A stretch of DNA of 33,148 bases from an uncultured Gammaproteobacteria bacterium (GCA_964637465.1 CAZWTE010000002.1:1-33148), one strand, 5' to 3'. Shown: positions 3,767-31,979, counted from the stretch's first letter. Made by a program: numbers and translations. The notes: generated from the sequence alone by a model not told the origin.

Positions 3767-4646
3767 CTAAATCTCCTTCTAAAATCCGGTCCAGATTATG
3801 CCAGGATTTATTAATCCGGTGGTCGGTGACCCGGTTTTGAGGAAAGTTATAAGTCCTGATTTTCTCCGACCTTTCTCCTGTTCCTACTTGAGTAGATCTT
3901 TGTTTTTCAATATTGCCCACATTCTTTTGTTGTTCCAGTTCCCATAATTTAGATCGGAGCAAGGTCATGGCGTTTTCCCGGTTTTGCAGTTGCGACCTTT
4001 CTGTTTGGCAGGTAACCACAATGCCGGTAGGGATATGTTTTAACCTGACGGCAGTAGACACCTTGTTAACATTTTGTCCTCCTGCCCCACCGGATCTAAA
4101 GGCTTCAAACTCAATATCTCCCTGGCTGATGGTGATTTGAGCTGCTGTTACTTGCGGTAAAACAGCTACAGTGGCGGTTGAAGTATGGATTCTGCCGGAA
4201 GATTCTGTTTCGGGTACTCTTTGTACCCGGTGGACACCAGATTCATATTTTAGGTTATTGTAGGCCTCTTTACCGGTAATTTTGAGTACAATTTCTTTGA
4301 TTTGTCCCAGTTTGCCTTCTGATCTGTCCAATTCTTCAATCTTCCAGCCCTTAGTTTGAGCAAATCTGGTATACATCCGGAGTAAGTCACCGGCAAACAG
4401 CCCTGCCTCATCGCCGCCGGCAGCAGACCTGACTTCCAGAATGGCCACGTTAGGATTAACAGAGGGTCCAGAGGATACAGAGGTGTCCTGACTATAATCT
4501 ATAGATAAAGCCGCTTTTTGCTTTTCCAAATCAGCAATTTCTTCCCTGGCTAGCTGCGCCATTTCCGGATCTTCAAGCAAAGGCTTGATCTCTTCAATCC
4601 TTTTGTTTATTTGATCAACTTGTTCTTTTAGGTAATCATTGTTCAT
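3735..4646 (-). CDS. prfA: peptide chain release factor 1
   Basis: GGQ motif ([10 protein letters not shown]). RF1-type tripeptide context [25 protein letters not shown] (PxT). At 303 aa it is shorter than the E. coli protein (360 aa). Confidence 0.92.
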
Positions 4647-7544: not shown

Positions 7545-7828
7545 ACAACCTCCTTGAAACAGGTTCTGCTGCCGGTGTGGCAAACATTTTTTCCCGTTAG
7601 TTCAACTTTGATTAACAGCGTATCAGCATCACAATCAGTAAATATTTTTTTTACCCTCAGCTTATTACCTGATGTTTCACCCTTTAACCAAAGCTTTTTT
7701 CTGCTTCTGCTCCAAAAATAAACCCATTTAGAGACTTTGGTTTTTTCCAAGGCTTTTTTGTTCATATAGCCTAACATCAGAATCTCGCCGCTTTTATAGT
7801 CCTGAATAATAACCGGAGTAAGTTTCAT
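7541..7828 (-). CDS. hisI: phosphoribosyl-AMP cyclohydrolase
   Basis: IIQD...[17 protein letters not shown]...DCDADTLL...CHTGSRTCF. It forms an ATGA overlap with the hisF stop. Confidence 0.9.
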
Positions 7829-8589
7829 ATCTCGCTCCTGATGGAGATTTTTTTACCCCTTAAATAATCTTTCAAATCTTTAATGGTTAATTCTCCAAAG
7901 TGAAATAGGGAAGCAGCAAGTGCCGCATCGGCGAGGCCTCTATTAAAGATTTCCACAAAATCCTCCAGCCTGCCGGCTCCGCCTGAGGCAATTATTGGCA
8001 CAGTAACAACCCCAGATACTCGTTTTGTCAGTTCCACATTAAATCCCTGTTTTGTGCCGTCAGTATCAATACTGGTTAACAATATTTCCCCGGCGCCTAA
8101 TTTAACAGCCTTTTTGGCCCACTCAACCGCTGATACGCCAGTATCGGTCATGCCTCCGTTAATAAAGACATTCCATCTGTTTTTGCTGACCTGTTTGGCA
8201 TCAAGCGATAACACTACGCACTGGCTGCCGAATTCTTTGGCGCAATCCGAAATCAGCGAAGGATTTTTAAATGCCCCGGTATTAACCGATACTTTATCAG
8301 CGCCGGCCCGGAGTATCATTCGCATATCCTCAACGGTTCTGATGCCTCCGCCAACCGAGAAGGGGATAGTTACCACTTCAGCTGTTCTTCTAACCACATC
8401 CAGTAAAATATCCCGGTTTTCCACTGTGGCTGTAATATCCAAAAATACCAGCTCATCAGCGCCTTCGTCACTGTACTTTTTAGCAAGCTGTACAGGATCT
8501 CCGGCATCCCGGAAATTAACAAACTGTATTCCTTTAACTACTTTGCCTTGAGTCATATCCAGACAAGGAACAATTCTTTTAGCCAACAT
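7825..8589 (-). CDS. hisF: imidazole glycerol phosphate synthase, cyclase subunit
   Basis: [15 protein letters not shown]; [12 protein letters not shown]; SVGGGIR; IASGGAG. This is the HisF signature, not the HisA one. Confidence 0.93.
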
Positions 8590-9229
8590 AATTTTTTCCT
8601 CCCATAAAATTTTTCAGCAGCTGAAAACCTATTTTGCCGCTTTTTTCCGGGTGGAATTGCACCCCGATAACATTATCTTTGGCCACAACGCTGGTAAATG
8701 TTTCCCCGTAATCAGTCAACCCGGCAATAATACTTTTATCTTCTGGCATGCAATAATAACTATTAACAAAATAGAAAAAGCTATTATCAGGAATACCCTG
8801 AAAAACTTTGAATTTTGAACTTTGCCGCCTTTGGCGAGCCTCGCCTCTGGCGGGAATTTTGAACTTTACTTCGTTCCAGCCAATTTGCGGAATCTTCCGC
8901 ATTTTTCTAAACCGTCTCACCTTTCCTTTAAAAATGCCAAGGCAATTGACATTACCTTCTTCGCTTCCTTCAAACAAAAGCTGCATTCCTAAACAAATCC
9001 CCAGGAATGGTTTGCCTTTGTTAATTTCATCAACAATGATTTGGTCCAGCCCTTTGGCTTGTAAGTTTTTCATACCCTGGCCGGCTGCGCCGACACCTGG
9101 CAGGATCAATGCCGCAGCTTTTTTAATCACAGCAGGCTTACCGGAAATTTGACTTTCCGCTCCCAGTTTATCCAAAGCGTTTTTAACGCTGGCTAAATTT
9201 CCTACTCCATAGTCAATTATTACTATCAT
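8579..9229 (-). CDS. hisH: imidazole glycerol phosphate synthase, glutamine amidotransferase subunit, carrying an in-frame repeat insertion
   Basis: IIDYGVGNL; GICLGMQLL (Cys nucleophile); QFHPEKS. I placed the start at ATG 9229 (ATGA overlap with the hisB stop), not at 9283. Confidence 0.9.
8810..8867. repeat. short composite repeat inside hisH: a 14-nt direct repeat (8810-8823 and 8854-8867) flanking a 30-nt GC-rich hairpin core
   Basis: GAATTTTGAACTTT ... GCCGCCTTTGGCGAGCCTCGCCTCTGGCGG ... GAATTTTGAACTTT. On the coding strand this encodes [20 protein letters not shown]. Confidence 0.85.
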
Positions 9230-9816
9230 AGTTTTCCTTTCGTTGAAGGAATTTGATTGGCAATTTTCCGGTTTCTTTGACAAGCCATATTAATGGCCCG
9301 GGCCGTTGCTTTAAAAATTGCCTCAATTTTGTGATGCTCATTTTCCCCGTACTCCACCTTAATAAATAGATTTACCCTGGCATTTTGGGCAAAAGAGTCC
9401 CAAAAGTGTTTAACTAACTCTGTCGGTAAATCTCCGACTTTTTCTTTGTTTATTGGACACTCGAATCTAAAAGAGTACCTGCCGGCAAAATCTATCGCCA
9501 CCGTGGCAATTGCTTCATCCATAGGCAGGATAAAAAAGCCATAGCGGTTAATACCCTTCTTTTCTCCCAGGGCTTTTGCAAAGGTTTCCCCTAAAACAAT
9601 TGCGACATCCTCAACTGTGTGATGCTCGTCAACCCAAGTATCACCTATGGCTTTAATGTCCAAATCAAATAGTCCTTGTTTGCTAAATAAATCCAACATG
9701 TGGTTTAAAAAACCAATCGGTGTATCTATTTTTCTTTGGCCGGTGCCATCAATATTCAGAGCAATTTTGATATTGGTCTCGCTGGTTTTTCTTTGAACTA
9801 TTGCCTGGCGTTTCAT
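9226..9816 (-). CDS. hisB: imidazoleglycerol-phosphate dehydratase
   Basis: RKTSETNI; DEHHTVEDVAI; GENEHHKIEAIFKA. It forms an ATGA overlap with the stop of the upstream hisC fusion gene. Confidence 0.93.
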   Translation of the reverse strand: MKRQAIVQRKTSETNIKIALNIDGTGQRKIDTPIGFLNHMLDLFSKQGLFDLDIKAIGDTWVDEHHTVEDVAIVLGETFAKALGEKKGINRYGFFILPMDEAIATVAIDFAGRYSFRFECPINKEKVGDLPTELVKHFWDSFAQNARVNLFIKVEYGENEHHKIEAIFKATARAINMACQRNRKIANQIPSTKGKL

Positions 9817-11348
9817 TTTTTTACTCCCTGAGTTAGCGCCTGGTAAAAGTTACCGTTAGTTTGCATCGGGATAAACTTAATGCCGATATTTTCGGCAAAA
9901 AGTTTGTCAGTATTCCTGTCCCCACACATAAAAGAGTTGTTTTTATCTATTAGGTTTTCTCTTAAGAATTTTTTCAGCAAACCGGTTTTAGGTTTTCGGC
10001 AGCCGCAGTTTTTTTCCGGCAGGTGAGGGCAAACATAAATTCTGGTAAATTTAATGTTGTTTTGTTTAAAAATAGCGAGCATTTTATCCTGGGGCGCTTG
10101 AAAACTGGTTTTGGGAAATGAGGCAGTGCCAATGCCATTTTGATTGGTGACCATGATTAGTTCGTATCCGCTCCTAATCAGTTTTTGCAGGCCGGCAATA
10201 ACACCATCTAAGATTTTTAATTTCTTGATATTGTCAATTTGGAAGGTATCCTGTGGTTCAAAAATTAAGGTACCGTCCCTGTCCAGAAATGCGTATTTTT
10301 TTAACATTATTTTTTTATAAATCCTGATAAACTCCTTCATTTGGTTAACGGTTCCAATACTAACGCGCAGCATATCTTTATGAGGCCGTACTGAAATGCC
10401 GGTATCTTTTAAGCTCTTAATTATATTTTTTTGATCCGGTTCAAAAAGTAAAAAATTACCTGAGGACGGGTAAAAAATTATTTTTTCTTTGGCAAAAAAT
10501 TCTTCAACCAGCGGTTTTGCCTTATTCATAACTTCATCTACATACATTTGCATATTTTTCCGGTCATCTAGCGCAGCAGATGCAGCTGTATATGCAAACA
10601 TACTTACAGCATATGGGCCTCGGACTTTTAATAACTCACTGATATATTTTTCTGAAGCAATGATATAGCCTATCCGGAGCGACGAGAGGCCGAATGCTTT
10701 TGATAAAGTACGGACAATAATAATGTTGGGGTATTTTTTGATCAGAGGGATGGCGGTAACTTTGGAAAATTCAAAATATGCTTCATCTGCCAGGATGATG
10801 GCGTTTGGAGCTTTCTTGGCGATTGCTTCGATATCCGTAATGGGCACTAACGTTCCTGTTGGATTGTTGGGATTACAAATAACAATTAGCTTGACTGATT
10901 TATTAATCATGCCCAGTAACCGCTTTAAAGAAAATGATAAATCTGATTTTGCATATAAAGGGCGAAGTATTTTATTTCCAGCTATTTTAGCGCATTGATA
11001 AAACATGGCAAAGGAGGGGGTGGGAATAATGACAGTATTAGTTTTTTCAGTAAATGTCCGAAAGATAAGATCAATTGCCTGATCGGAGCCGTTAGTAATC
11101 ATGACTTGATTGGTATTCATACCAGCATACCTGGCTAACTTTTTTTCCAGTTTGCCATACTCGGGATAAAGTTGTAATTTGTCGGCGTTCAACAGATTTT
11201 GGATGGCTTGTTTAACTTTTGGTGAAGGAGGTGTTGTCCTTTCGTTAAAATCCAAAAGTAAGCCACGAAAATCCCGCCGGCCAGCCAGGGGCGGGTTATA
11301 TAGTTCCATTTTTTGTATTTTCAATAACGCCAAATTTTTCATTTTCAT
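9813..11348 (-). CDS. hisC: fusion protein: histidinol-phosphate aminotransferase (N-terminal, about aa 1-347) plus HAD-type histidinol-phosphatase domain (C-terminal, about aa 348-511)
   Basis: N-terminal domain: CNPNNPTG and TLSKAFGLSSLRIGY (PLP Lys). C-terminal domain: FLDRDGTLI (DxDGT), VTNQNGI and CPHLPEKNCGCRKP, a Zn motif typical of the HisB-N/GmhB family. The reading frame is continuous, with the domain junction near nt 10307. Confidence 0.85.
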   Translation of the reverse strand: MKMKNLALLKIQKMELYNPPLAGRRDFRGLLLDFNERTTPPSPKVKQAIQNLLNADKLQLYPEYGKLEKKLARYAGMNTNQVMITNGSDQAIDLIFRTFTEKTNTVIIPTPSFAMFYQCAKIAGNKILRPLYAKSDLSFSLKRLLGMINKSVKLIVICNPNNPTGTLVPITDIEAIAKKAPNAIILADEAYFEFSKVTAIPLIKKYPNIIIVRTLSKAFGLSSLRIGYIIASEKYISELLKVRGPYAVSMFAYTAASAALDDRKNMQMYVDEVMNKAKPLVEEFFAKEKIIFYPSSGNFLLFEPDQKNIIKSLKDTGISVRPHKDMLRVSIGTVNQMKEFIRIYKKIMLKKYAFLDRDGTLIFEPQDTFQIDNIKKLKILDGVIAGLQKLIRSGYELIMVTNQNGIGTASFPKTSFQAPQDKMLAIFKQNNIKFTRIYVCPHLPEKNCGCRKPKTGLLKKFLRENLIDKNNSFMCGDRNTDKLFAENIGIKFIPMQTNGNFYQALTQGVKK

Positions 11349-11352
11349 AGGT

Positions 11353-12639
11353 TTAAAATCTGACTAAAACAGAATTTTTGTGAGCCGGCAGTTGCTCTAC
11401 TTCTGCAATAGTTCCGATTGCTTCTTTAATTTCGAGTAATCCGTTTTTGGTACATTTTTGGACTTGCATCCACTTGCCAAAAGCCTCTATCCCTAAAGGC
11501 GGGTGCATTTTGGCTGTGCCGCCCGTTGGCAAGACATGATTTGCTCCGGTGGCATAATCACCGCTTGATTTGGTTGTATAATCACCCAGGAAAACAGAAC
11601 CGGCATTAGTAATCTTGTTAACTAATTGCTCAGGTTTTTTTGTCATGATTTCCAAGTGCTCGGAAGCATACCGGTTAGCAAATTCAACTGCTTCGTCTAG
11701 TGAACCAACAATGGCAAATAAGCCATATTTTTCTAAAGATGTTTTAGCTCTTTCTTGAGTAGCCAGTTTTGGTAATTGTTTAGTAATCTCTTTGATTGTT
11801 TCTTCCGCCAGCAGTTTTGATGTGGTTAACAGGATGCAAGCGGAATCTGGGCCGTGTTCAGCGTCTGCTAATAAATCTGCTGCAATGAATTTGGGGTTGG
11901 CTGTGTCGTCCGCAATAATCAATACTTCAGAAGGTCCGGCCGGCATATCAATACTGATAGTTTGCAAGGCCAGTATTTTTGCGGCTGTGACATAAAGATT
12001 TCCTGCTCCAAAAATTTTATAGACACTGGGAATAGTGTTCGTACCATAAACCATGGCAGCAATTGCTTCTGCGCCACCAACTTTATAGATCTTTTTTATT
12101 CCTAACATATCAGCTGCCATTAAAGTTGGGGCAGGAGTTTTACCATCTGACTTGGCAGGGGAGCACATAATAATTTCTTTACAGCCAGCTACTTGGGCCG
12201 GGATCGCTGTCATTAAAACAGAAGAAGGGTAAACTGCTTTGCCACCCGGCACATAAATGCCCACTTTTTCAATTGGCCGCCAAACTCTCCAGACTGAAAT
12301 GCCTTTTTCGGTCTTCACAACAGTGTCTTTTTTGTTTTTCAGTTGGGCTTTTTGGACAGCGGTTATATTTTTGATCATTTGGTTTATTGATTTAATGAAC
12401 TTTCTATCTACATTCTGATAAGCCTTTTTGATTTCATCCCCGGTAACTTGTATTGAAAAAGGGGTCGGGCTGCCGGAAAACTTTTGGGAATATTTAATCA
12501 AAGCTTGATCGCCATTTTGCTTAACATCTTCCATGATTTTTTTAACCACCGGGATTACCTCCAGATAATTTTCGGAGGATCGTTTCATTATTTTTTTGTA
12601 ATCCTTTTTTGATAAGTCTTTTAAGTTAATGATTTTCAT
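11353..12639 (-). CDS. hisD: histidinol dehydrogenase
   Basis: [10 protein letters not shown]; AEHGPDS; SEHLEI; [15 protein letters not shown]. It forms an ATGA overlap with the hisG stop. Confidence 0.93.
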
Positions 12640-13283
12640 ATGATTATTTTTTCAAATTGCGCCACTAGCTTGCCTAATAGGATTTTTCTGCCATTTAACA
12701 ATGATTGTTTGTTTGAAATAAGTACTGTTTCAGAATTATATATTTTGGTAAGTATTCTTAAATCATTTACAGCAAGCGTGCGACCGGTTGAAGTAATATC
12801 AACTATGGCTTGTGCTATACCTAAGGCAGGAGCAATTTCAACAGATCCGCCTATGCGGGTAATCTTCACGGTAATACGGTTTTCTTTAAAGAAATTTTTT
12901 GTGGATTTTGGGTAGGTTGTAGCGATAGTTTTATTTTCTAAATCACTTAATTTTGTAATTTTTGATTCTTTTGGAACTGCTAGAACCAGTGAGCAAAACC
13001 CATATTTTAGATTGAGCAGCTTTTTTACTTTTGGCTTTTTTTCATTAAGCATATTCTGACCCAAAATGCCCAAATCAACCACGCCGGAGGCAACATAACC
13101 AGGAATGTCGTTGTTGCGGACGTAAAGAATTTCCAGGGGGAAATTTCGGCATAGGGAAAACAGCCTTTGTTTATAGCTTTCAAACTCCAGGCCGGATTTG
13201 CGCAAAAATTCCAGCGTTTCTTCGGTCAAACGTCCTTCTTTTTGAATTGCCAATTTTAAATTTTTAATACTTAAACTTGTCAT
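12636..13283 (-). CDS. hisG: ATP phosphoribosyltransferase, short form (about 215 aa, no C-terminal regulatory domain)
   Basis: LKLAIQKEGRL...DIPGYVASGVVDLGILG...DITSTGRTL. I placed the start at ATG 13283, which follows GAAAGGAAGG; the track start at 13331 lies inside the terminator hairpin. Confidence 0.88.
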   Translation of the reverse strand: MTSLSIKNLKLAIQKEGRLTEETLEFLRKSGLEFESYKQRLFSLCRNFPLEILYVRNNDIPGYVASGVVDLGILGQNMLNEKKPKVKKLLNLKYGFCSLVLAVPKESKITKLSDLENKTIATTYPKSTKNFFKENRITVKITRIGGSVEIAPALGIAQAIVDITSTGRTLAVNDLRILTKIYNSETVLISNKQSLLNGRKILLGKLVAQFEKIII

Positions 13284-13295
13284 ACCTTCCTTTCT

Positions 13296-13632
13296 AAGCC
13301 AACAAAAAACCTTCCGTTCTTTGCCCACCACAAAACGTGATGAACAAGGAACGGAAGGTTCAAAAAAAGGACCCTTCGACTTAGCTCAGGGCTATAGCCT
13401 CCCGCGGTCCCATCCTTTGTTCCATGTACCGTTACTGGTACGTGGCTCTTAGTGGCGACTTTGGTTTTCCAACATCGTCTGTTTCATTTTACGGTTAAAC
13501 TTCCGGCAAGTATTTGGCTTGCAGCCATGAACCAGAATAAATTCGGTTCATGGTCCTGAAGTGAAACTTTGTTTCTACTTCATGGACTCCTGGATCGTGA
13601 CTCCAGTGAAACGCTTTTGAATATTTAGTTGT
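13296..13632 (-). promoter_or_regulatory. candidate T-box riboswitch leader specific for tRNA-His, controlling the his operon
   Basis: T-box core AAAGGAUGGGACCGCG (13420-13403) matches the consensus AGGGUGGNACCGCG at all but one position. Helix A1 is GAACAAAGGA (13422-13413) paired with UCCUUGUUC (13350-13342). The 7-nt bulge is UGGGACC (13412-13406). Helix A2 is GCGGGAGG (13405-13398) paired with CCUUCCGU (13358-13351). The 3' strand of the antiterminator is the 5' strand of the terminator. The first leader hairpin displays CAC in its loop (13599-13597). Confidence 0.65.
13301..13360 (-). terminator. intrinsic terminator (attenuator) immediately upstream of the hisG RBS
   Basis: Minus strand reads AACCUUCCGUUC CUUGUU CAUCAC GUUUU GUGGUG GGCAAA GAACGGAAGGUU, a roughly 23-bp near-continuous hairpin at 13360-13308. 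It is followed by UUUUUGUU. Confidence 0.75.
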
Positions 13633-19273: not shown

Positions 19274-19765
19274 ATGCCCAGGCCTCCAAGTAAAAGGAAA
19301 GCTTTAACAGATTTAGTGCTTTTGGCTATAGAGAAATCTATTGATGGTTATACAGTTTTTGAAGATTTTATTTATAATCCATTATTGGAAAGACCAGTTA
19401 AAAAAAATGAACTTGCCCAAGTGATCAAAAGGTTAAGAGAAAAAGGCCTTGTTGAATTAATAGATGATAAAGAGCTAATTTTGCGATTAACTGATTCCGG
19501 TAAAGATAGAGCATTGTGGGCAAAAATGATGGGCGGAGATGAAAAATGGGATGGGAAGTGGAGATTGGTAGTATGGGATATTCCAGAGAAGAGAAGGCAA
19601 GCCAGAGATCTTTTAAGATTTAAGCTTAAGCAGTTAGGGTTTAAACAATGGCAACAAAGTATTTGGGCTTCAAAAATTAATTGCACAAAGTTATTAAGAG
19701 ATTTTATTAAGAAGGTTGGAATAGAGGATTGGGTAATGGTAATTGAGTCTGATAACATTGGATAA
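19274..19765 (+). CDS. PaaX-family-like transcriptional regulator (wHTH plus Cas2/VapD-like middle domain)
   Basis: WDGKWRLVVWDIPEKRRQARDLLRFKLKQLGFKQWQQSIWAS matches the PaaX signature W-G-W...DIP...R..LR..L...GF..L..S.W. The N-terminal region is wHTH-like. Confidence 0.65.
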   Translation: MPRPPSKRKALTDLVLLAIEKSIDGYTVFEDFIYNPLLERPVKKNELAQVIKRLREKGLVELIDDKELILRLTDSGKDRALWAKMMGGDEKWDGKWRLVVWDIPEKRRQARDLLRFKLKQLGFKQWQQSIWASKINCTKLLRDFIKKVGIEDWVMVIESDNIG

Positions 19766-25862: not shown

Positions 25863-26912
25863 ATGAATAAGCATATAATCAATCTTTCACGGAATGAAAA
25901 TCTTTACGGGTTCCCGAATAAAATATTACAAAAAACAGATAGGATATTAAATAGATTAGGACTAATTACTTATCGGAAAGAGAGTAACCTAAGAGAGAAA
26001 CTCAGTAAAAAACACAAAGTGAAAATAGACAATATTTTCATAGAAATGGGTGCTGAAGGTGCTTTACGTGAGATATTTGTTAATTTATCCCGTCTGACTG
26101 ATAGTAAAATATTATTAAGCGATATTTTGTGGGATTATTATAAGGAATTAGCAAAGCAGCAAAATTTGCTTACTGTTTTTTACCGGATCAAAAAAAATAA
26201 AAAAAAGAATACTTATGAATTTGATTTAGAAGAGATAAATACCGCAATTAAACAGGAAAAACCTACAGCCATAATAATAAATAATCCCCATAATCCTGCT
26301 GGCTATCAGATACCGGAAAAGAAGTTAGGCAGACTACTAAGAAAAATTAACAAAAAAATAATAGTTATTTTTGACGAAACTTATTTTGGATTCCGGAATA
26401 GTTATGATAATAGAGGTTTATTCATCAAACGATATCCTAATTTGATTGTCGTAAGAAGTTTTTCCAAACTTTACGCCGTAGCAGGTATTCGAATCGGTTA
26501 TTTGTTGATTGGAGATTATGCCCGCAAGAAACTAAATATCTATGCCCCTTACCTGGGGCATAATTTTATTGCAGAAGAGATTGCAAGTATGCTTTTGGAT
26601 GAAACAAAGTTCTATCAATCGATTAGAGAAGAAATTAATAGGCAGCGTGATGTTTTATACCATTATTTTAACCGCTTGAAGGGTTTTCAAGCCTATAAAT
26701 CAGTAGCAAATTTCTTATTAATTCGGATCAATTCAGAATTATATTCTCACATTGGATATAAACAATATATGGAACAGAATGGGTATATATTCAAATTATA
26801 TACAGAGGACAGATTGAAGAATTGTATAAGAATAACTATTCCTTTAAATGAACATATCCAGAAAATTATTAGACTGACTAACTCCTTTATAACAGGAAAA
26901 AACAATGAGTAA
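25863..26912 (+). CDS. PLP-dependent aminotransferase, class I/II (HisC-like family)
   Basis: LSRNENLYG; INNPHNPAG; RSFSKLYAVAGIRIGY (PLP Lys). The gene is very AT-rich and Lys/Asn-rich, and contains KKNKKKN. Confidence 0.8.
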   Translation: MNKHIINLSRNENLYGFPNKILQKTDRILNRLGLITYRKESNLREKLSKKHKVKIDNIFIEMGAEGALREIFVNLSRLTDSKILLSDILWDYYKELAKQQNLLTVFYRIKKNKKKNTYEFDLEEINTAIKQEKPTAIIINNPHNPAGYQIPEKKLGRLLRKINKKIIVIFDETYFGFRNSYDNRGLFIKRYPNLIVVRSFSKLYAVAGIRIGYLLIGDYARKKLNIYAPYLGHNFIAEEIASMLLDETKFYQSIREEINRQRDVLYHYFNRLKGFQAYKSVANFLLIRINSELYSHIGYKQYMEQNGYIFKLYTEDRLKNCIRITIPLNEHIQKIIRLTNSFITGKNNE

Positions 26913-27915
26913 AATTTTAGTCATGGGTGGTACTCAGTTTGTCGGTAAGGCTGTTGTTAAATATTTTATACAAAAAAACCATTCTGTAGACATCTTTACC
27001 AGAGGGAATATTGCAGTTGATTATGTTGGGATAAATCAACATATTAAGGGAGACAGAAAAAATAAGGATTTTGTAAGAAAAGCCTTAGCTGATAAAAAAT
27101 ATGATTTTGTAATAGATATATCTGCGTATACGGTAGAGGATACGGCCATTTTACTTCCTAATCTCAATAAAAGCCATCTGAAAAAATATATTTTCATCAG
27201 TTCCGGAGCAGTTTATAACAAGCCTAAATCTTCTATTCAGCCGGTGTTATTTAAAGAAAACTCTCCTGCGAAACTAATTCCTCATCCTGCTTGGGGGAAT
27301 TACGGTTTAGAAAAGAAAAAGGCTGAAAATTATATAAGGGAACAATCTAAAAAGAGGGCAATTAATTTTATTATTATTCGTCCGTCCTATATCTATGGAA
27401 TAGGGAATAATTTATTAAGAGAGCAATTTTATTTTTCCCGGATTGAATCAGGACAGGCAATATTTATCCCGGCAAATACCAGAACACATATCCAATTTAT
27501 TAATATTGATGATTTATATATTTTCATAGAACAATGCTTAATAAATCCAAAAGCGCGAAATCAAGTTTATAATGTGGCTCACCCCCAAATATTAACCTGG
27601 CGGGTTTTTGTAAATTTTATCATAAAAGCCTGTGGAAAAAAAACAAGAGTTTATGAAATATCCAATAAAATAGAACCAAATGCGCGGTTATATTCGCCTT
27701 TCCGCGATGAAAATATGGCATTAGATATTTCAAAATTACTAAAACATGGCTTTTCTTCGCCGGGGGTTGATCTTGAAGCAGGTTTAAATATAGCATACAC
27801 TTATTTTAAATTTACAAATGAAGGAAAAAATAAAAGATTTGTGGGATTTAAGGATCCAAAAATGACTAGACTGGATGAGATATCTGTTTTGATGAAAAAA
27901 CAAGATGATTTTTGA
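26905..27915 (+). CDS. NAD(P)-dependent epimerase/dehydratase (extended SDR)
   Basis: ILVMGGTQFVGKAV Rossmann motif, FISSGAVY, and a YGLEKKKAE YxxxK catalytic motif. It overlaps the upstream gene by 8 nt (ATGAGTAA). Confidence 0.8.
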   Translation: MSKILVMGGTQFVGKAVVKYFIQKNHSVDIFTRGNIAVDYVGINQHIKGDRKNKDFVRKALADKKYDFVIDISAYTVEDTAILLPNLNKSHLKKYIFISSGAVYNKPKSSIQPVLFKENSPAKLIPHPAWGNYGLEKKKAENYIREQSKKRAINFIIIRPSYIYGIGNNLLREQFYFSRIESGQAIFIPANTRTHIQFINIDDLYIFIEQCLINPKARNQVYNVAHPQILTWRVFVNFIIKACGKKTRVYEISNKIEPNARLYSPFRDENMALDISKLLKHGFSSPGVDLEAGLNIAYTYFKFTNEGKNKRFVGFKDPKMTRLDEISVLMKKQDDF

Positions 27916-28891
27916 GAGATTAAACAATAATTCAAGCATTGCCGAAATTACAGAGGCATTACTCGTAAGAGGAAGTGAACAGCAAAAGTTGTTTGAGAAA
28001 GCAAGCGAATTTCGCGGTGACAAGGTATATATCAGGGCAGCGATCGAACCCAGTAATATTTGCCGGCAAAATTGTACTTACTGCGGCATGAGAAGAGACA
28101 ACAAAGAACTCGCACGGTTCCGTATTACCGATACACCATTGGATAAATTGGTAGATGAGGCTATTTCTATACCTGAAGTTGATTTTGTGCATATTGCCCT
28201 TGGTGAAGATATCAAATTCCCCTTTAATCAAGTAGCTAATTTAATCAGAAGGGTGAATAGCGCCGGAAAAACAATCTCTCTTGTATTAGGAGAATTGCCC
28301 GAGGCTGTTTATTCAATGTTATATGATGCCGCGGAAGGCAACCCAGCCCGATTTACAATAAATTTGGAGACAACAGATAACGAATTATTCGAAAAGATTA
28401 AGCCAGGACACCGTTTCGCAAAAAGGCTTGGTAAGCTGGAAGCGATAGAAAGAATAGGTTTTCAACCTTGTTCCGGCATAATAGCAGGGTTACCGGACCA
28501 GACTTATGAAATAGTGGCAAAAGATTTATTATTTCTTGTAAACTATCACAGGCTTGTTGATATCAGCGCCAGTACGTTTATCCCTAGTCCCAGTTCTCCG
28601 CTTGAGGGTTGTTTTCGTGGTGACGATAATCTTACTTTAAATTTCTTAAGCCTGATTCGTTTAATTACAAAAAATCCATCGCTTACTATCAGCGCATCGA
28701 GTTCTCTTGCTGAAGACGCAAGGCAGACAGCTTTGCAGTTCTTTGCCAACTTGGTTACTATACATCTGTTGCCCAAGCAATACCAAGGTTTATATCTGAT
28801 ATATAACGGCGAAAACCGCAGCTTCCAACAGATTGATGCTATTCGGAAGCGCGTTTCGGATTTAGGCCTGAGGTTTAATAAGTCAGCATAA
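27905..28891 (+). CDS. radical SAM enzyme of the HydE/PylB/BioB clade
   Basis: IEPSNICRQNCTYCGMRRDN (CxxxCxxC). Downstream blocks are LGELPE, ETTDNELF, GLPDQT, DLLFL and FIPSPSSPL, in the order I recall for HydE/PylB-type enzymes. It overlaps the upstream gene by 11 nt. Confidence 0.8.
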   Translation: MIFERLNNNSSIAEITEALLVRGSEQQKLFEKASEFRGDKVYIRAAIEPSNICRQNCTYCGMRRDNKELARFRITDTPLDKLVDEAISIPEVDFVHIALGEDIKFPFNQVANLIRRVNSAGKTISLVLGELPEAVYSMLYDAAEGNPARFTINLETTDNELFEKIKPGHRFAKRLGKLEAIERIGFQPCSGIIAGLPDQTYEIVAKDLLFLVNYHRLVDISASTFIPSPSSPLEGCFRGDDNLTLNFLSLIRLITKNPSLTISASSSLAEDARQTALQFFANLVTIHLLPKQYQGLYLIYNGENRSFQQIDAIRKRVSDLGLRFNKSA

Positions 28892-28892
28892 T

Positions 28893-29996
28893 ATGTTTAA
28901 TATATTAGTACTAAATTCTGATAAATCCACGGGAATAAATTTTACTAAATCACTTCAGCTTGCGAAAAAAGAATATAATAGAGATTATTACATTATTGGT
29001 ACTTCAACCGATCTTATTCGTTCGAAGCTTTGCAATAACGATCAGACCATTTTGCTTAATCAGAGATTTAAATCTCCATTAGAAGTTATGAAATACATTG
29101 AGAAAAAATTACAGAAGAAAATTAATTTAGTGTATGAAACAAAGAGCGCGGAACGCATGTTGCAAATTAATTCTTACAGAGAAAGACTACCGGTTTTTAT
29201 CCCTTCTGCCAAATCAATTAGAATATTTGAAAATAAATTTAGAACTTATTACATCTTAAAAAAGAATGGATTTCCCGTACCGGAAACCCGGAAACCGAAA
29301 AATCGGCGGGAAGTAAAAAGAATTATATCCGAAATAGGACATCCAAATGTGTGGATTAGGCGCTCGGCTGGTCAAGGAGGTAAAGGGTCATTTATATCAA
29401 ATGATGCGGATTATATTGCTGATATAATTGATCGGGATAACAACGGTTGGGGAAATTATATTATTTCGGAAAGATTGCCTAAACAAGATCTTTCGAAGGG
29501 ATGGGGGCCTCATTTAAAAGATGATTTATTACCAGGGGAAATGGTTACTTGGATTGCTTTGTATGACAACGGAGATTTGGTTGCTTCTCAAACCCGGAAG
29601 AGATTGTATTGGGAACATTCTGATTTAACACCATCTGGAGTAACCGGATATTCCGGAGCCAATATGACAATTAAACTTGATAGCCTACACGATTTATGTG
29701 ATAAGATGATACGTTCGATCGATAATAAGCCGCAGGGTGCTATGGGGGCAGATTTTGTTGTTGATAGCGATGGTGCTCCAAAGTTAACCGAAATTCAATC
29801 CAGCAGGTTTTTTACCTCAACTTATCCGCTCACATTATTAGGTTTAAATTTTCCTGATTTATATATCAATTGTTTTAGAAAAAAAAGCATTCAAAAGGGA
29901 ATCATAAATCCATGTAAACCAGGTATGATTTATATTCAGAGATTTGGGGCTGATAGTGTTATGGTTGATAGAGATACTTTAAAAGACGGCATTTAG
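28893..29996 (+). CDS. ATP-grasp ligase
   Basis: KFRTYYILKKNGFPVPET...WIRRSAGQGGKGSF...GAMGADFVVDSDGAPKLTEIQSSRF is an ATP-grasp fold pattern. The start is 1 nt after the radical SAM stop. Confidence 0.75.
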   Translation: MFNILVLNSDKSTGINFTKSLQLAKKEYNRDYYIIGTSTDLIRSKLCNNDQTILLNQRFKSPLEVMKYIEKKLQKKINLVYETKSAERMLQINSYRERLPVFIPSAKSIRIFENKFRTYYILKKNGFPVPETRKPKNRREVKRIISEIGHPNVWIRRSAGQGGKGSFISNDADYIADIIDRDNNGWGNYIISERLPKQDLSKGWGPHLKDDLLPGEMVTWIALYDNGDLVASQTRKRLYWEHSDLTPSGVTGYSGANMTIKLDSLHDLCDKMIRSIDNKPQGAMGADFVVDSDGAPKLTEIQSSRFFTSTYPLTLLGLNFPDLYINCFRKKSIQKGIINPCKPGMIYIQRFGADSVMVDRDTLKDGI

Positions 29997-30068
29997 AGTT
30001 CACTTAAGAGATTAAAATATTTCGAAGTATTGACTTTAGTTTGGTATTATGCTAAAAACCAACACACT

Positions 30069-31979
30069 ATGAGTTTGGTTAAGGCGGAAGGAGAACCTGT
30101 AGGTATTACCTCTCCGGGGGACTTAGAGAAATTATCTAAGTTAGTCAGGTATTATATTTTAACTTCAACATCTGCGGCCGGTTCCGGACATCCTACATCC
30201 TCTTTATCCGCAGTAGAGCTTACATCAACACTCCTTTTTGGCGGTTTTTTCAGATTTGATCTGGGTAATAAAGATAATCCGCATAACGACCGTTTGATTT
30301 TTTCCAAAGGTCACGCTTCGCCGCTTTTTTACTCTTTGTTTGCGGCAGCCGGTACAATTTCTGAAGATGAACTTTTAACAATGCGTAAATTTGGCAGCCG
30401 TTTAGAAGGTCATCCAACTCTGGAGTTTCCTTATACAGAGGTACCTACCGGTTCTTTAGGTCAGGGTTTATCAGTAGGTTTGGGAATGGCGTTAAACAGT
30501 AAATATATTGATAAAACCGGATTTAGGACTTTTGTGCTTATGGGTGATTCTGAAGTGGCAGAAGGTTCTGTGTGGGAAGCAATGGGGGTTGCCTCTTTTT
30601 ATAAACTGGATAATTTAGTCGGCATTTTAGATGTTAACAGGTTGGGTCAAAGTAGGGAGACTATGCTGGGTCATGATATTAAAACTTATGAAAAAAGAAT
30701 TTCTTCTTTTGGTTGGGAAGCAGTAGTTTTAGAAGATGGCCATGATATAGGACAAATAATTGCTGCCTATGATAGAACCTTAGCCTGTAGGGACAAACCG
30801 ATTATGATTATTGCCAGAACCTTAAAAGGTAAGGGCATATCGTTTTTAGAAGATAAAGAAAACTGGCACGGAAAAGCCCTTTCTAAAGAAAAATTGAAAT
30901 TAGCGCTTGGAGAACTTGGGTATATTGATAGAGATCTGAGAGGCAGTATTACACCACCAGAAGAAATTAAGCATCAAGCAACAGAATTAAAAAGCGATCT
31001 GCAAGTTTCACCAACTCATCAAGTTGAGTCAACTACGGACTACTTAATAGGTAATTTACTTACGACAAGGAATGCATTTGGTAATGCGCTAGTAAGGCTT
31101 TTCCCAAGATACCCTAATATGGTTGTCATGGATGGGGAAACTTCAAATTCCACATTTTCTGAATTATTTGCCAAAGCTTATCCACAGAATTATTTTGAGA
31201 TGTTTATTGCGGAACAAAATATGGCAGGAGCTGCCCTAGGTTTGGCAAAACAGGGTAAAATACCCTTTATTACCGCGTTTGCAGCTTTTTTTAGCCGTGC
31301 TTTTGATCAGATTAGGATGGCGCAATACGCTGATGCCAATATTAAATATTGCGGCTCTCATGCTGGAGTTTCAATAGGTGAAGACGGATCATCTCAAATG
31401 GGACTGGAGGATATAGCAATGTTCCGTTCACTCCTAGGAAGTGTTGTATTATATCCTTCCGATGCTGTCTCGGCTGAAAAGTTAACCGAAGAGGCCATCA
31501 AACACCGCGGCATCGTTTATATCCGAACGACCAGAAAAGATACACCTGTTATTTACCGTGCAGACGAAGAATTCCCAATAGGGGGCAGCAAGATTTTACG
31601 CGAAAGTCCGCTTGATAAAGTTACTGTAATCGGTGCAGGTGTTACACTACATGAAGCGCTAAAAGCTTATGATTTGTGTAAGGACAAAGGTATCTCAATC
31701 AGAGTAATTGATTTATATTCAATAAGTCCACTGGATGTAAAAACATTAAGGCGGTCTGCTGAAGACACAAAAGCCGTAATTACTGTTGAAGATCATCATA
31801 AGGCCGGAGGGTTGGGGGAAGCTGTTGCGGCGACATTATCGGGTACAGGTAAAAGCGTAAATATTATGGCTGTAGAAAAAATACCGCACAGCGGCAAACC
31901 GGATGAATTGCTTGAATATGAAGGGATTAATGCTGAGGCTATTTATTCGAAAGTAACACAATTGCTATCTTCAAAATAA
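30069..31979 (+). CDS. tkt: transketolase (single-chain, about 636 aa)
   Basis: SGHPTSSLSAVEL; DRLIFSKGHASPLFYS; LEGHP; GSLGQGLSVGLG; MGDSEVAEGSVWEA. The C-terminal Pyr and TKC domains are present. I preferred the ATG at 30069 over the TTG at 30030. Confidence 0.88.
   Translation: MSLVKAEGEPVGITSPGDLEKLSKLVRYYILTSTSAAGSGHPTSSLSAVELTSTLLFGGFFRFDLGNKDNPHNDRLIFSKGHASPLFYSLFAAAGTISEDELLTMRKFGSRLEGHPTLEFPYTEVPTGSLGQGLSVGLGMALNSKYIDKTGFRTFVLMGDSEVAEGSVWEAMGVASFYKLDNLVGILDVNRLGQSRETMLGHDIKTYEKRISSFGWEAVVLEDGHDIGQIIAAYDRTLACRDKPIMIIARTLKGKGISFLEDKENWHGKALSKEKLKLALGELGYIDRDLRGSITPPEEIKHQATELKSDLQVSPTHQVESTTDYLIGNLLTTRNAFGNALVRLFPRYPNMVVMDGETSNSTFSELFAKAYPQNYFEMFIAEQNMAGAALGLAKQGKIPFITAFAAFFSRAFDQIRMAQYADANIKYCGSHAGVSIGEDGSSQMGLEDIAMFRSLLGSVVLYPSDAVSAEKLTEEAIKHRGIVYIRTTRKDTPVIYRADEEFPIGGSKILRESPLDKVTVIGAGVTLHEALKAYDLCKDKGISIRVIDLYSISPLDVKTLRRSAEDTKAVITVEDHHKAGGLGEAVAATLSGTGKSVNIMAVEKIPHSGKPDELLEYEGINAEAIYSKVTQLLSSK

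What the first reader, a model, noticed from the sequence alone, without database searches (positions are those of the whole stretch)
27905..29996. HydE/PylB-clade radical SAM gene followed 1 nt later by an ATP-grasp ligase gene: pylB-pylC-like logic without pylS/pylT
The rSAM protein has the clade-typical block IE-x-SN-x-C-x-x-NC-x-YCG-x-RRDN. It also has the downstream LGE-P, GLP-QT, DLLFL and FIP-P-PL blocks that I associate with HydE and PylB. In pyrrolysine biosynthesis, PylB makes 3-methyl-D-ornithine from lysine, and the ATP-grasp enzyme PylC ligates it to a second lysine. PylD, a Rossmann-fold dehydrogenase, then oxidises an amine. This locus has the same rSAM-then-ATP-grasp order. A Rossmann-fold SDR and an aminotransferase precede the pair and could supply the amine-oxidation or amine-exchange step. 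No hydrogenase maturation partners (HydF, HydG) are present, which argues against a HydE role. This suggests that a rearranged amino acid is made and then ligated.
Basis: inference. Interest (0 to 1): 0.72.

Follow-up and report, generated by a model that had tools for sequence, protein, structure and literature searches.

The report
HydE-like radical SAM / ATP-grasp biosynthetic cassette
The two genes are real and end a four-gene operon (aminotransferase, dehydrogenase, radical SAM enzyme, ATP-grasp ligase) that recurs in many bacterial phyla and probably makes an unknown amide-linked amino-sugar-like compound, not a pyrrolysine-type amino acid.

Summary
A 328-aa radical SAM (rSAM) gene (27905-28891) is followed after 1 nt by a 367-aa ATP-grasp gene (28893-29996). 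A HisC-like aminotransferase and an extended SDR precede them with overlapping stop/start codons.

The rSAM protein belongs to the HydE/PylB/BioB clade but is closest to HydE (NCBIfam 137 bits, against PylB 83). It passes no family cut-off and lacks HydE's conserved Met224 and Met291. The ATP-grasp founds a small unannotated family with no specific tie to PylC.

A HydE-like rSAM gene lies within 7 kb of this ATP-grasp family in 16 of 26 non-redundant related loci, directly upstream in most. The usual companions are a HisC-like aminotransferase, an APH-type kinase and a HAD phosphatase. Some relatives have the ATP-grasp fused to the kinase or to the phosphatase. In five loci a sugar-type GMC oxidase is present and the rSAM is absent; the two never co-occur.

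Best reading: a phosphorylated sugar- or polyol-like scaffold gains a carbonyl, is transaminated, and the new amine is joined to a carboxylate by the ATP-grasp. The cassette is a low-GC accessory insert in a Daviesbacteria-like genome. The pylB-pylC analogy holds only for gene order and superfamily. The product is unknown.

The parts
25863..26912 (+). HisC/CobD-like class I/II PLP aminotransferase, 349 aa. It is the first gene of the cassette and a paralogue of the housekeeping HisC.
   Evidence: Pfam Aminotran_1_2 scores 135 bits. NCBIfam hisC scores 183 bits against a cut-off of 277, and CobD scores 126 bits. The best PDB matches are histidinol-phosphate aminotransferases and a threonine-phosphate-decarboxylase-like enzyme. 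The SFSK lysine motif and the GIRIGY motif are present. The genuine HisC, fused to a phosphatase, sits in a his operon at 9813-11348(-) and is only about 29% identical. A homologous aminotransferase is near the ATP-grasp in 18 of 26 related loci.
26905..27915 (+). Extended short-chain dehydrogenase (NAD-dependent epimerase/dehydratase family), 336 aa.
   Evidence: Pfam Epimerase scores 69.9 bits. The GxxGxxG and YxxxK motifs are readable in the translation. It overlaps the aminotransferase gene by 8 nt and the rSAM gene by 11 nt. Homologues at 27-34% identity lie directly upstream of the HydE-like rSAM gene in L007, L018, L020, L021, L023 and L117.
27905..28891 (+). HydE-like radical SAM enzyme, 328 aa. 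It belongs to a small distinct subfamily of six 90%-identity clusters.
   Evidence: The CX3CX2C motif is at C53, C57 and C60. NCBIfam HydE scores 136.8 bits, below the 254.6 cut-off, and PylB scores 82.8. TmHydE in the PDB gives E = 4e-44. Close relatives are only P0002-P0006 at 48-79% identity; the next hits are near 35%. HydE Met224 aligns to Asp/Asn and Met291 to Thr/Ser. There are no C-terminal auxiliary-cluster cysteines. Against L001, dN/dS is 0.08.
28893..29996 (+). ATP-grasp carboxylate-amine ligase of an unannotated family, 367 aa. It is the last gene of the cassette.
   Evidence: Pfam and NCBIfam hits are sub-threshold only. The AlphaFold model has pLDDT 91.7. Foldseek gives probability 1.0 to RizA, biotin carboxylases, PurD, PurK, BacD and PylC, all at 10-16% identity. 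The family alignment has invariant residues K115, R156, Q233-RKRLY-E241, D287, E300 and R305. An exhaustive search found 189 50%-identity clusters at E<=1e-30, of which only about 5 form the close subfamily. Relatives are fused to an APH kinase (P0131) or to HAD phosphatases (P0166, P0250).
30069..31979 (+). Transketolase. It is an adjacent housekeeping gene and probably not part of the cassette. The ORF tool calls a TTG start at 30030; the first ATG is at 30069.
   Evidence: NCBIfam transketolase NF004559 scores 833 bits, above the 488 cut-off. Named relatives at 63-73% identity are Candidatus Daviesbacteria and other Patescibacteria. In Daviesbacteria genomes the orthologue sits beside transaldolase with no cassette nearby. 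It is listed because ThDP enzymes recur near some related cassettes: a divergent transketolase-like gene in L024 and a fragment in L020.

Best explanation
Genes 25863-29996 form one accessory operon: a HisC-like aminotransferase, an extended SDR, a HydE-like rSAM enzyme and an ATP-grasp ligase. The operon was probably acquired horizontally by a Daviesbacteria-like (Patescibacteria) bacterium.

It is a minimal version of a widespread but uncharacterised biosynthetic cassette. The proposed pathway has four steps.
1. A hydroxyl of a phosphate-bearing sugar-, polyol- or nucleoside-like scaffold is turned into a carbonyl. Here the rSAM enzyme, working with the SDR, would do this. Other lineages would use a GMC flavin oxidase.
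2. The HisC-like PLP enzyme converts the carbonyl into an amine.
3. The ATP-grasp joins that amine to a carboxylate, probably an amino acid, through an acyl-phosphate intermediate.
4. Where kinase and phosphatase genes are present, the phosphate handle is installed before these steps and removed after them.

The product would be an N-acylated or aminoacylated amino-sugar-like compound. It could be a free metabolite or a cell-surface decoration.

Shown: the gene family assignments, the operon structure, the conserved linkage, the gene fusions, and the mutual exclusion of rSAM and GMC genes. Inferred: the substrate class, the order of steps, and above all the reaction catalysed by the rSAM enzyme.
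For: **Operon and selection.** The genes overlap or are spaced by 1 nt. dN/dS is 0.08-0.18.

**Every relative of the window-type rSAM with usable context keeps the partners.**
- L001-L003 carry aminotransferase, SDR, rSAM and ATP-grasp.
- L004-L006 carry aminotransferase, rSAM and ATP-grasp.
- L117 carries aminotransferase, SDR and rSAM.
- L118 carries rSAM and ATP-grasp.

**Other HydE-like clades show the same linkage.** Members about 30-36% identical to the window protein sit beside the same ATP-grasp family in Alphaproteobacteria, Verrucomicrobia, Chitinophagales, Eubacteriaceae, Bdellovibrionales, Planctomycetaceae and others.

**Gene tally.** Among 26 non-redundant loci of this type the counts are aminotransferase 18, rSAM 16, APH kinase 16, HAD-IIA 12 and GMC 5. 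rSAM and GMC occur together in 0 loci (Fisher one-sided p = 0.004). The gene set {rSAM, HAD, ATP-grasp, APH, aminotransferase} in L037 mirrors {GMC, HAD, ATP-grasp, APH, aminotransferase} in L009, L013 and L014; L038 and L040 carry subsets of the rSAM version.

**Fusions.** The ATP-grasp is fused to an APH kinase (P0131 and L014) or to HAD phosphatases (P0166, P0250).

**Sugar-type relatives.** The GMC partner is closest to FAD glucose and fructose dehydrogenases and to 6'''-hydroxyparomomycin C oxidase. More distant ATP-grasp relatives lie between DegT aminotransferase, epimerase, UDP-sugar dehydrogenase, GFO oxidoreductase and glycosyltransferase genes.

**Secondary-metabolite accessories.** Related loci carry exporters, BtrH_N, nucleotidyltransferases, an A-T didomain and a sulfotransferase.

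**Published precedents for the logic.**
- In C. jejuni, Cj1437 makes an amine phosphate, the Cj1438 C-terminal domain amidates a carboxylate with it using ATP, and the HAD phosphatase Cj1435 removes the phosphate (PMC11800397).
- In pseudouridimycin biosynthesis, a GMC oxidase, a transaminase and an ATP-grasp ligase act in series (PMC10127198).

**Accessory status.** GC is 0.31-0.32 across 26-28 kb, against about 0.40-0.44 in the flanks. Daviesbacteria genomes lack the cassette next to transketolase.
Against: - The window cassette has no kinase or phosphatase gene, so the phosphate-handle idea rests on relatives.
- The aminotransferase is absent from 8 of the 26 loci.
- The window also encodes an SDR that could make the carbonyl by itself. 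The rSAM enzyme may therefore do something else.
- Three rSAM-type loci (L018, L021, L024) also carry an O2-dependent 2OG oxygenase, and two of them are from taxa that are usually aerobic. rSAM is therefore not simply the anaerobic substitute for GMC.
- To my knowledge, no member of the HydE/PylB/BioB clade is known to act as an alcohol dehydrogenase or dehydratase.
- The protein has no auxiliary-cluster cysteines of the kind used by the rSAM dehydrogenases BtrN and anSME (own knowledge).
- The exclusivity test is not corrected for shared ancestry, and only 5 loci carry GMC.
- No substrate or product has been identified for any member.
Confidence: 0.45

Rival explanations
1. The rSAM enzyme rearranges an amino acid (lysine or ornithine type, as PylB does). 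The ATP-grasp ligates it to a second amino acid, as PylC does. The SDR and aminotransferase play a PylD-like amine oxidation or exchange role.
For: The rSAM protein is in the same clade as PylB (PylB model 82.8 bits; PDB 3T7V E = 5.5e-13). The rSAM-then-ATP-grasp order is the same, and a Rossmann dehydrogenase is nearby. Distant members of the ATP-grasp family pass the Pfam PylC-like_N threshold: P0129, P0130 and P0133. PylC appears among the structural matches with TM-score 0.62-0.66.
Against: HydE scores far higher than PylB. PylC is not distinguished from RizA, PurK, PurD or biotin carboxylases, and is absent from the sequence hits. PylC-like_N is not detected in the window protein or in the 22 close family members. 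The partner genes in related loci are kinases, HAD phosphatases, a phosphate-ester-type aminotransferase, sugar-type GMC oxidases and glycan genes. A GMC oxidase is present where the rSAM is absent, which makes little sense for an amino-acid mutase. The window has no tRNA-Pyl.
Confidence: 0.12
2. The rSAM enzyme acts like HydE, MqnE or HpnH. The 5'-deoxyadenosyl radical adds to a sulfur or an unsaturated carbon, building an adenosylated (nucleoside-like) scaffold. This scaffold is then oxidised or reduced by the SDR, transaminated, and aminoacylated by the ATP-grasp. The product would be a peptidyl-nucleoside-type antimetabolite.
For: The nearest characterised relative, HydE, adds 5'-dA to a sulfur (PMC10114646). 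The enzyme set across related loci is rSAM, HisC-like aminotransferase, kinase, phosphatase, 2OG oxygenase and ATP-grasp. It parallels nucleoside-antibiotic pathways that use a rSAM enzyme plus a phosphatase and aminotransferase (polyoxin PolH, PolJ and PolI; PMC5365060) and cryptic phosphorylation. HAD-IIA and APH-type enzymes often act on nucleotides or nucleosides (own knowledge).
Against: HydE's metal-binding Met224 and Met291 are not conserved. No nucleoside-specific genes (enolpyruvyl transferase, pseudouridine synthase, phosphoribosyltransferase) were seen in the cassettes. The GMC-for-rSAM swap is hard to explain if the rSAM enzyme builds the scaffold itself.
Confidence: 0.1
3. The rSAM protein is a true HydE that matures an [FeFe] hydrogenase encoded elsewhere in the genome. 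Its adjacency to the ATP-grasp gene is incidental.
For: HydE is the best family hit and the best PDB match, at about 32-33% identity.
Against: The score of 136.8 bits is far below the 254.6 cut-off. Met224 is replaced by Asp and Met291 by Thr, and the auxiliary-cluster cysteines are absent. No hydF, hydG or hydA was found in the window or in the related loci whose genes were annotated. Adjacency to the ATP-grasp is conserved in many phyla. The genes are translationally coupled.
Confidence: 0.02

Closest known systems
HydE, the [FeFe]-hydrogenase H-cluster maturase (TIGR03956; Thermotoga maritima HydE, PDB 3CIW/5FEW/7O1O)
   Same: It is the best sequence match: E = 4e-44 and about 32-33% identity over nearly the full length. 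It shares the CX3CX2C-RRDN block and many motifs.
   Different: The window protein scores below the family cut-off. HydE's conserved Met224 and Met291 are Asp and Thr here, and there are no C-terminal cluster cysteines. The gene context is aminotransferase, SDR and ATP-grasp instead of HydF, HydG and HydA.
PylB-PylC-PylD (pyrrolysine biosynthesis)
   Same: The order is the same, a rSAM gene of the same broad clade followed by an ATP-grasp gene, with a Rossmann dehydrogenase in the cluster. Distant ATP-grasp family members carry the Pfam PylC-like_N domain.
   Different: PylB scores 82.8 bits against a cut-off of 348. PylC is only a generic structural match at 13-14% identity. There is no pylS or pylT in the window. 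An aminotransferase is present, and related loci add kinases, phosphatases and GMC oxidases.
Campylobacter jejuni capsule amidation set: Cj1437/Cj1436 (PLP enzymes making serinol-P and ethanolamine-P), the Cj1438 C-terminal ATP-dependent amidoligase, and the Cj1435 HAD phosphatase (PMC11800397)
   Same: The enzyme logic is the same. A HisC/CobD-like PLP enzyme makes an amine phosphate, an ATP-dependent ligase forms the amide, and a HAD phosphatase removes the phosphate. Fusion of the ATP-grasp to HAD or kinase in relatives fits this logic.
   Different: The window has no HAD gene and no glycosyltransferases, and the C. jejuni system has no rSAM enzyme.
Pseudouridimycin early steps: the GMC oxidase SapB/PumI, the transaminase SapH/PumG, the ATP-grasp ligase PumK and the kinase PumH (PMC10127198). 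A similar GMC oxidase plus aminotransferase pair occurs in aminoglycoside pathways.
   Same: Oxidise an alcohol, transaminate it, then aminoacylate the new amine with an ATP-grasp. The GMC-type sister cassettes (L009, L013, L014) have exactly these enzyme classes.
   Different: The aminotransferase here is HisC-like, not LipO/SapH-like. There is no pseudouridine synthase. In the window a HydE-like rSAM enzyme and an SDR stand where the GMC oxidase would be.
Polyoxin/nikkomycin core pathway: the rSAM enzyme PolH, the phosphatase PolJ, the 2OG oxygenases PolD and PolK, and the aminotransferase PolI (PMC5365060)
   Same: It combines a rSAM enzyme, a phosphatase, 2OG oxygenases and a PLP aminotransferase on a phosphorylated scaffold. 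Loci L018, L021 and L024 have rSAM, 2OG oxygenase, kinase, HAD and ATP-grasp genes.
   Different: The loci have no enolpyruvyl transferase or other nucleoside-specific gene. Whether PolH is related to this rSAM clade was not tested.

Membership tests
HydE (TIGR03956) | Score at or above the curated equivalog cut-off of 254.6 bits | tested here: not met
   The score is 136.8 bits. The L007 cassette rSAM scores 178.7 bits, also below the cut-off.
HydE (TIGR03956) | Radical SAM CX3CX2C cluster motif with full-length similarity to HydE | tested here: met
   C53, C57 and C60 are present. The alignment to TmHydE covers residues 4-311 with E = 4e-44.
HydE (TIGR03956) | The conserved methionines Met224 and Met291, which handle the Fe(CO)2CN species (PMC10114646) | tested here: not met
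   Met224 aligns to Asp219 and Met291 to Thr in the window protein. The six family members have D/N and T/S at these positions.
HydE (TIGR03956) | Co-occurrence with hydF, hydG and hydA | tested here: inconclusive
   None was found in the 33-kb window or in the related loci whose genes were annotated. The complete genome is not available.
PylB (TIGR03910) / pyl operon | Score at or above the 348.2-bit cut-off, and closer to PylB than to other clade members | tested here: not met
   The score is 82.8 bits, below the HydE score. PDB PylB gives E = 5.5e-13 against HydE at 4e-44.
PylB (TIGR03910) / pyl operon | Presence of pylS, pylT and pylD nearby | tested here: not met
   The only tRNA in the window is tRNA-Leu(CAA). 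No PylS- or PylD-like gene appears among the annotated ORFs. The rest of the genome is not testable.
PylC-type ATP-grasp | Specific similarity to PylC (Pfam PylC-like_N domain, or PylC as the best structural or sequence match) | tested here: not met
   The window protein and 22 close relatives have no PylC-like_N hit; only P0129 and P0130 do. PylC is absent from the PDB sequence hits. It ranks 13th and 22nd by Foldseek at 13-14% identity.
ATP-grasp superfamily | Three-domain ATP-grasp fold with conserved nucleotide- and Mg-binding residues | tested here: met
   The model has pLDDT 91.7 and pTM 0.90. Foldseek gives 693 PDB matches at E<=0.001, and the top 50 listed are all ATP-grasp enzymes at probability 1.0. 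Invariant K115, R156, D287, E300 and R305 are seen in the family alignment; their roles are inferred.
BioB (TIGR00433) | Score at or above the 225-bit cut-off, in a biotin gene context | tested here: not met
   The score is 61.5 bits. The window has no biotin genes.
Housekeeping HisC (TIGR01141) | Score at or above 276.55 bits, and location in a his operon | tested here: not met
   The cassette aminotransferase scores 183 bits. The genuine HisC-phosphatase fusion lies in the his operon at 9813-11348(-) and is about 29% identical.
Oxidase-transaminase-ATP-grasp amide pathways (pseudouridimycin-like or Cj1435-1438-like logic) | Co-located carbonyl-forming enzyme, PLP aminotransferase and ATP-dependent amide ligase, often with a kinase and phosphatase | tested here: met
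   The window has SDR plus rSAM, an aminotransferase and an ATP-grasp. Relatives add APH, HAD and GMC genes. Membership is by enzyme classes only. Orthology to the characterised enzymes was not tested, and the chemistry cannot be tested with these tools.

The most novel reading that the evidence does not exclude
A subfamily of HydE-like rSAM enzymes has been recruited away from metal-cluster chemistry to act on a sugar- or polyol-phosphate scaffold. Its step would be functionally interchangeable with that of a GMC flavin alcohol oxidase: an O2-independent alcohol-to-carbonyl oxidation or a diol dehydration. This would feed a transaminase and a new ATP-grasp ligase, which together make a previously unseen class of aminoacylated amino-sugar-like metabolites. 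The producers would include candidate-phyla-radiation bacteria, which are thought to have almost no secondary metabolism.
Probability: 0.3. Interest if true: 0.75.

Novelty: new variant of a known kind. Interest (0 to 1): 0.55.

Why it matters
- HydE-like proteins outside hydrogenase operons are usually mislabelled 'biotin synthase' or 'HydE', and none has a known reaction. This cassette supplies a defined, recurrent genetic context and a natural replacement by a GMC oxidase. The function of one such subfamily therefore becomes directly testable.
- The work defines an unannotated ATP-grasp family. It comprises about 190 clusters at 50% identity, of which about 5 form the close subfamily.
- It places a compact small-molecule biosynthetic operon in a Daviesbacteria-like Patescibacterium, a group with very reduced metabolism.
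- Cultured carriers of sister cassettes make experiments feasible: Actinomadura sp. BRA 177, Roseibium sp. AS2 and Fumia xinanensis.

Tried and rejected
1. **Genuine HydE, BioB or HmdB.** Rejected on family cut-offs, missing signature methionines and gene context.
2. **PylC orthology.** Rejected on sequence and structure searches.
3. **The aminotransferase as housekeeping HisC.** Rejected because the real HisC is in the his operon of the same window.
4. **Transketolase as a cassette member.** In the window it is a lineage-typical pentose-phosphate gene; Daviesbacteria orthologues sit beside transaldolase with no cassette. A divergent transketolase-like gene does head L024, a fragment ends L020, and DXS lies near L008. 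These are kept as an open lead only.
5. **The about 100 best non-family rSAM hits ('biotin synthase', about 35% identity) as a guide to function.** They form a separate family with Gly224/Thr291, next to a FAD/Trp-halogenase-like gene and with no ATP-grasp.
6. **Puromycin Pur6 as an ATP-grasp analogue.** Pur6 has no ATP-grasp domain.
7. **Sinefungin pathway.** It uses a B12-dependent rSAM enzyme, so it is not related.
8. **Simple 'anaerobic rSAM versus aerobic GMC' split.** It is weakened by rSAM loci that also encode a 2OG oxygenase.
9. **Literature searches.** Searches for a described HydE-like/ATP-grasp cluster found nothing relevant.
10. **Promoter and terminator scan of the operon region.** It gave no signal above the shuffled expectation.

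Full report
**1. Observation**

The rSAM gene ends with TAA at 28889-28891 and a single T precedes the ATP-grasp ATG.

The two upstream genes overlap their neighbours. The aminotransferase (25863-26912) overlaps the SDR (26905-27915) by 8 nt, and the SDR overlaps the rSAM gene by 11 nt. The four genes are therefore one tightly packed operon. A consensus scan found no convincing internal promoter or terminator above the shuffled expectation.

All four genes show strong purifying selection against their 67-79%-identical counterparts in L001, with dN/dS of 0.08-0.18.

**2. What the two proteins are**

*The rSAM protein.*
- It matches Pfam Radical_SAM.
- Among curated NCBIfam models it scores HydE 136.8, PylB 82.8, BioB 61.5 and HmdB 57.3 bits. 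All are far below the family cut-offs.
- Against solved structures, Thermotoga HydE gives E = 4e-44 and PylB gives E = 5.5e-13.
- It is therefore a member of the HydE/PylB/BioB clade, nearest HydE, but not a member of any characterised family.
- A review of HydE structures names Met224 and Met291 as conserved residues that handle the Fe(CO)2CN species (PMC10114646). In the alignment these positions are Asp219 and Thr in the window protein. Across its six-member family they are D/N and T/S.
- Outside the CX3CX2C motif there are only two cysteines, so no auxiliary cluster is likely.
- In a 5.8-billion-protein collection only five other 90%-identity clusters are close, at 48-79% identity. Identity then drops to about 35%.

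*The ATP-grasp protein.*
- It has only sub-threshold sequence hits: ATPgrasp_ST, ATP-grasp_3, CPSase and RimK.
- An AlphaFold model built on 24 relatives is confident (pLDDT 91.7).
- Foldseek matches hundreds of ATP-grasp enzymes at probability 1.0 and 10-16% identity. RizA, biotin carboxylases, PurD, PurK and BacD are at the top. PylC is at ranks 13 and 22.
- Nothing singles out PylC. The Pfam PylC-like_N domain is found only in the two most distant members of the family alignment.
- An exhaustive HMM search of 1.84 billion cluster representatives gives 189 clusters at E<=1e-30. Only about five belong to the close subfamily.

**3. Genomic setting in the window**

The window also carries a histidine operon with a genuine HisC fused to a phosphatase domain at 9813-11348(-). 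The cassette aminotransferase is therefore a divergent paralogue, about 29% identical.

The transketolase downstream passes its NCBIfam cut-off. Its named relatives at 63-73% identity are Candidatus Daviesbacteria and other Patescibacteria. In Daviesbacteria genomes that gene sits beside transaldolase without any cassette.

GC falls to 0.31-0.32 over 26-28 kb, against about 0.40-0.44 in the flanks. The cassette is best read as an accessory, probably horizontally acquired, insertion in a Daviesbacteria-like genome. The transketolase is a bystander.

No hydF, hydG or hydA and no tRNA-Pyl occur in the window.

**4. Comparative evidence**

*Relatives of the window-type rSAM.* Every relative with enough flanking DNA keeps the partner genes.

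| Locus | Genes present |
|---|---|
| L001-L003 | aminotransferase, SDR, rSAM, ATP-grasp |
| L004-L006 | aminotransferase, rSAM, ATP-grasp, then further biosynthetic and export genes |
| L117 | aminotransferase, SDR, rSAM |
| L118 | rSAM, ATP-grasp |

*Searches seeded with the ATP-grasp family.* Scans of reference genomes and metagenomes gave more than 100 loci. Mapping homologues of all neighbouring genes onto them and removing near-duplicates left 67 loci.

- 26 loci are of a 'HisC/phospho' type. Within 7 kb of the ATP-grasp the counts are HisC-like aminotransferase 18, HydE-like rSAM 16, APH-family kinase 16, HAD-IIA phosphatase 12, extended SDR 9 and GMC oxidoreductase 5.
- The rSAM gene usually lies immediately upstream of the ATP-grasp, or one gene away.
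- These rSAM proteins fall into at least two further HydE-like clades, about 30-36% identical to the window protein. Some occur as tandem pairs.
- The hosts span Alphaproteobacteria, Verrucomicrobia, Chitinophagales, Eubacteriaceae, Bdellovibrionales, Planctomycetaceae and Patescibacteria.
- rSAM and GMC genes never co-occur: 0, 16, 5 and 5 loci for both, rSAM only, GMC only and neither. Fisher one-sided p = 0.004, uncorrected for phylogeny.
- The gene set {rSAM, HAD, ATP-grasp, APH, aminotransferase} in L037 mirrors {GMC, HAD, ATP-grasp, APH, aminotransferase} in L009, L013 and L014. L038 and L040 carry subsets of the rSAM version.
- The ATP-grasp is fused to the kinase in an Acidimicrobiia locus (P0131, L014). 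It is fused to HAD phosphatases in P0166 and P0250.
- The GMC partner resembles FAD-dependent glucose and fructose dehydrogenases and the aminoglycoside enzyme 6'''-hydroxyparomomycin C oxidase.
- Accessory genes are those of small-molecule clusters: ABC and MFS exporters, a BtrH_N-domain protein, nucleotidyltransferases, an adenylation-carrier didomain, a sulfotransferase, a histidine-phosphatase and 2OG oxygenases.
- A more distant ATP-grasp branch (26-30% identity, 20 loci) lies among DegT aminotransferase, epimerase, UDP-sugar dehydrogenase, GFO oxidoreductase and glycosyltransferase genes. It never has a rSAM gene nearby.

**5. Mechanism proposed**

*What is shown.* There is a conserved operon. 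A PLP enzyme of the class that works on phosphate esters is linked to an ATP-dependent carboxylate-amine ligase. The ligase is physically fused in some lineages to a kinase or a phosphatase. A HydE-like rSAM or a sugar-type flavin oxidase occur as mutually exclusive partners.

*What is inferred.* A phosphorylated sugar-, polyol- or nucleoside-like scaffold gains a carbonyl. The HisC-like enzyme converts it to an amine. The ATP-grasp acylates that amine with a carboxylate, probably an amino acid. A phosphatase removes the phosphate handle where one is encoded.

*Published precedents for the logic.*
- In the C. jejuni capsule pathway, Cj1437 makes serinol phosphate. The Cj1438 C-terminal domain forms the amide with ATP, and the HAD phosphatase Cj1435 removes the phosphate (PMC11800397).
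- In pseudouridimycin biosynthesis, a GMC oxidase, a transaminase and an ATP-grasp ligase act in series, with a kinase of unclear role (PMC10127198).
- Polyoxin biosynthesis combines a rSAM enzyme, a phosphatase, 2OG oxygenases and an aminotransferase on a phosphorylated nucleoside (PMC5365060).

*The weakest step is the rSAM reaction.* The swap with GMC suggests it makes the carbonyl, by oxidation or by diol dehydration with the adjacent SDR as redox partner. Four points count against this.
- The window's SDR could provide the carbonyl alone.
- To my knowledge, no member of this rSAM clade is known to do such chemistry.
- Some rSAM loci also encode O2-dependent oxygenases.
- The window cassette has no kinase or phosphatase.

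I put 0.45 on the overall statement and about 0.3 on the specific rSAM role.

**6. Rivals**

- *Pyrrolysine-like reading.* It keeps gene order, clade membership and the PylC-like_N domain of distant relatives in its favour. It does not explain the phosphate-handling partners, the sugar-type oxidase swap or the stronger HydE affinity (0.12).
- *HydE/MqnE-style adenosyl addition building a nucleoside scaffold.* This is possible and would be the more exotic outcome (0.10).
- *True hydrogenase maturation.* This is very unlikely (0.02).
- *Free metabolite or surface-glycan decoration.* Left open. The distant branch of the family favours glycans. The exporters, resistance-like kinases and carrier-protein genes of nearer loci favour a secreted small molecule.

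**7. Comparison with the known, and novelty**

The cassette works like known oxidise-transaminate-ligate pathways but is not a member of any of them. Neither the rSAM subfamily nor the ATP-grasp family has a curated model or a characterised member. Source annotations are 'hypothetical protein', 'ATP-grasp domain-containing protein' or 'radical SAM protein'.

I class it as a new variant of a known kind. It is moderately interesting for three reasons.
- It gives a testable function for an orphan HydE-like subfamily.
- It defines a new ATP-grasp family.
- It shows a compact biosynthetic operon in a candidate-phyla-radiation genome.

Neither is met, but the specific PylB/PylC interpretation is not borne out either.

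Noticed in passing
window 7825-13331 (- strand): A histidine biosynthesis operon is present in this Patescibacteria-like window: HisG, HisD, a 511-aa fusion of HisC with a HAD/PNK3P-type phosphatase domain at 9813-11348, IGP dehydratase, HisH and HisF. The aminotransferase-phosphatase fusion echoes the aminotransferase plus HAD logic of the cassette family.
   Followed up: partly
L003:3454-6321: In one close relative the ATP-grasp and the transketolase are called as a single 955-aa ORF. It looks like an in-frame deletion that removes the ATP-grasp C-terminus, the spacer and the transketolase N-terminus. It may be a real deletion or an assembly artefact.
   Followed up: partly
L014:6994-9102; proteins P0131, P0166, P0250, P0163, P0165: Relatives of the ATP-grasp are fused to other domains: an APH-family kinase (702 aa), HAD phosphatases, an Amidohydro_2 domain and a WbmS-like polysaccharide deacetylase domain.
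   Followed up: partly
L017:5232-7251, L020:5274-7235, L039:5501-7493, L043:2253-4330: Two divergent HydE-like rSAM genes lie in tandem directly upstream of the ATP-grasp, or of a classical SDR plus the ATP-grasp. This suggests two successive radical steps or a heteromeric enzyme.
   Followed up: no
proteins P0007-P0104; loci L033:8001-9104 and L034:1808-2746: A large, tight HydE-like family is labelled 'biotin synthase' by JGI and includes Verrucomicrobiota members. It has Gly and Thr at the HydE Met224 and Met291 positions. It sits next to a FAD-binding/Trp-halogenase-like gene and has no ATP-grasp nearby. It is another orphan HydE-like family.
   Followed up: partly
L024:702-2621; L020:12520-12942; L008:834-2867: ThDP enzymes recur near related cassettes. 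A divergent transketolase-like gene (218 bits against a cut-off of 575) heads the L024 cassette. A 140-aa transketolase N-terminal fragment ends the L020 cassette. A genuine DXS lies on the opposite strand near L008. This may hint at a ketose-phosphate substrate.
   Followed up: partly
L004:6944-8086 and homologues in L016, L019, L020, L062: A conserved protein of about 380 aa has no family assignment apart from a weak AAA_14 hit. It recurs in five cassettes. L004 also has a 450-aa protein with no hits.
   Followed up: no
window 3735-4646 (- strand): The release-factor ORF (PCRF plus RF-1 domains) is only 303 aa, and its match starts at profile position 42. The N-terminus may be encoded in another frame, which would suggest a prfB-type programmed frameshift.
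   Followed up: no
window 19274-19765 (+): A small protein carries a PaaX central Cas2-like domain (77 bits). It lies next to an unannotated 236-aa ORF on the opposite strand.
   Followed up: no
window 26000-28000: GC drops to 0.31-0.32 across the aminotransferase and SDR genes, against about 0.40-0.44 in the flanks. This is consistent with foreign origin of the cassette.
   Followed up: partly
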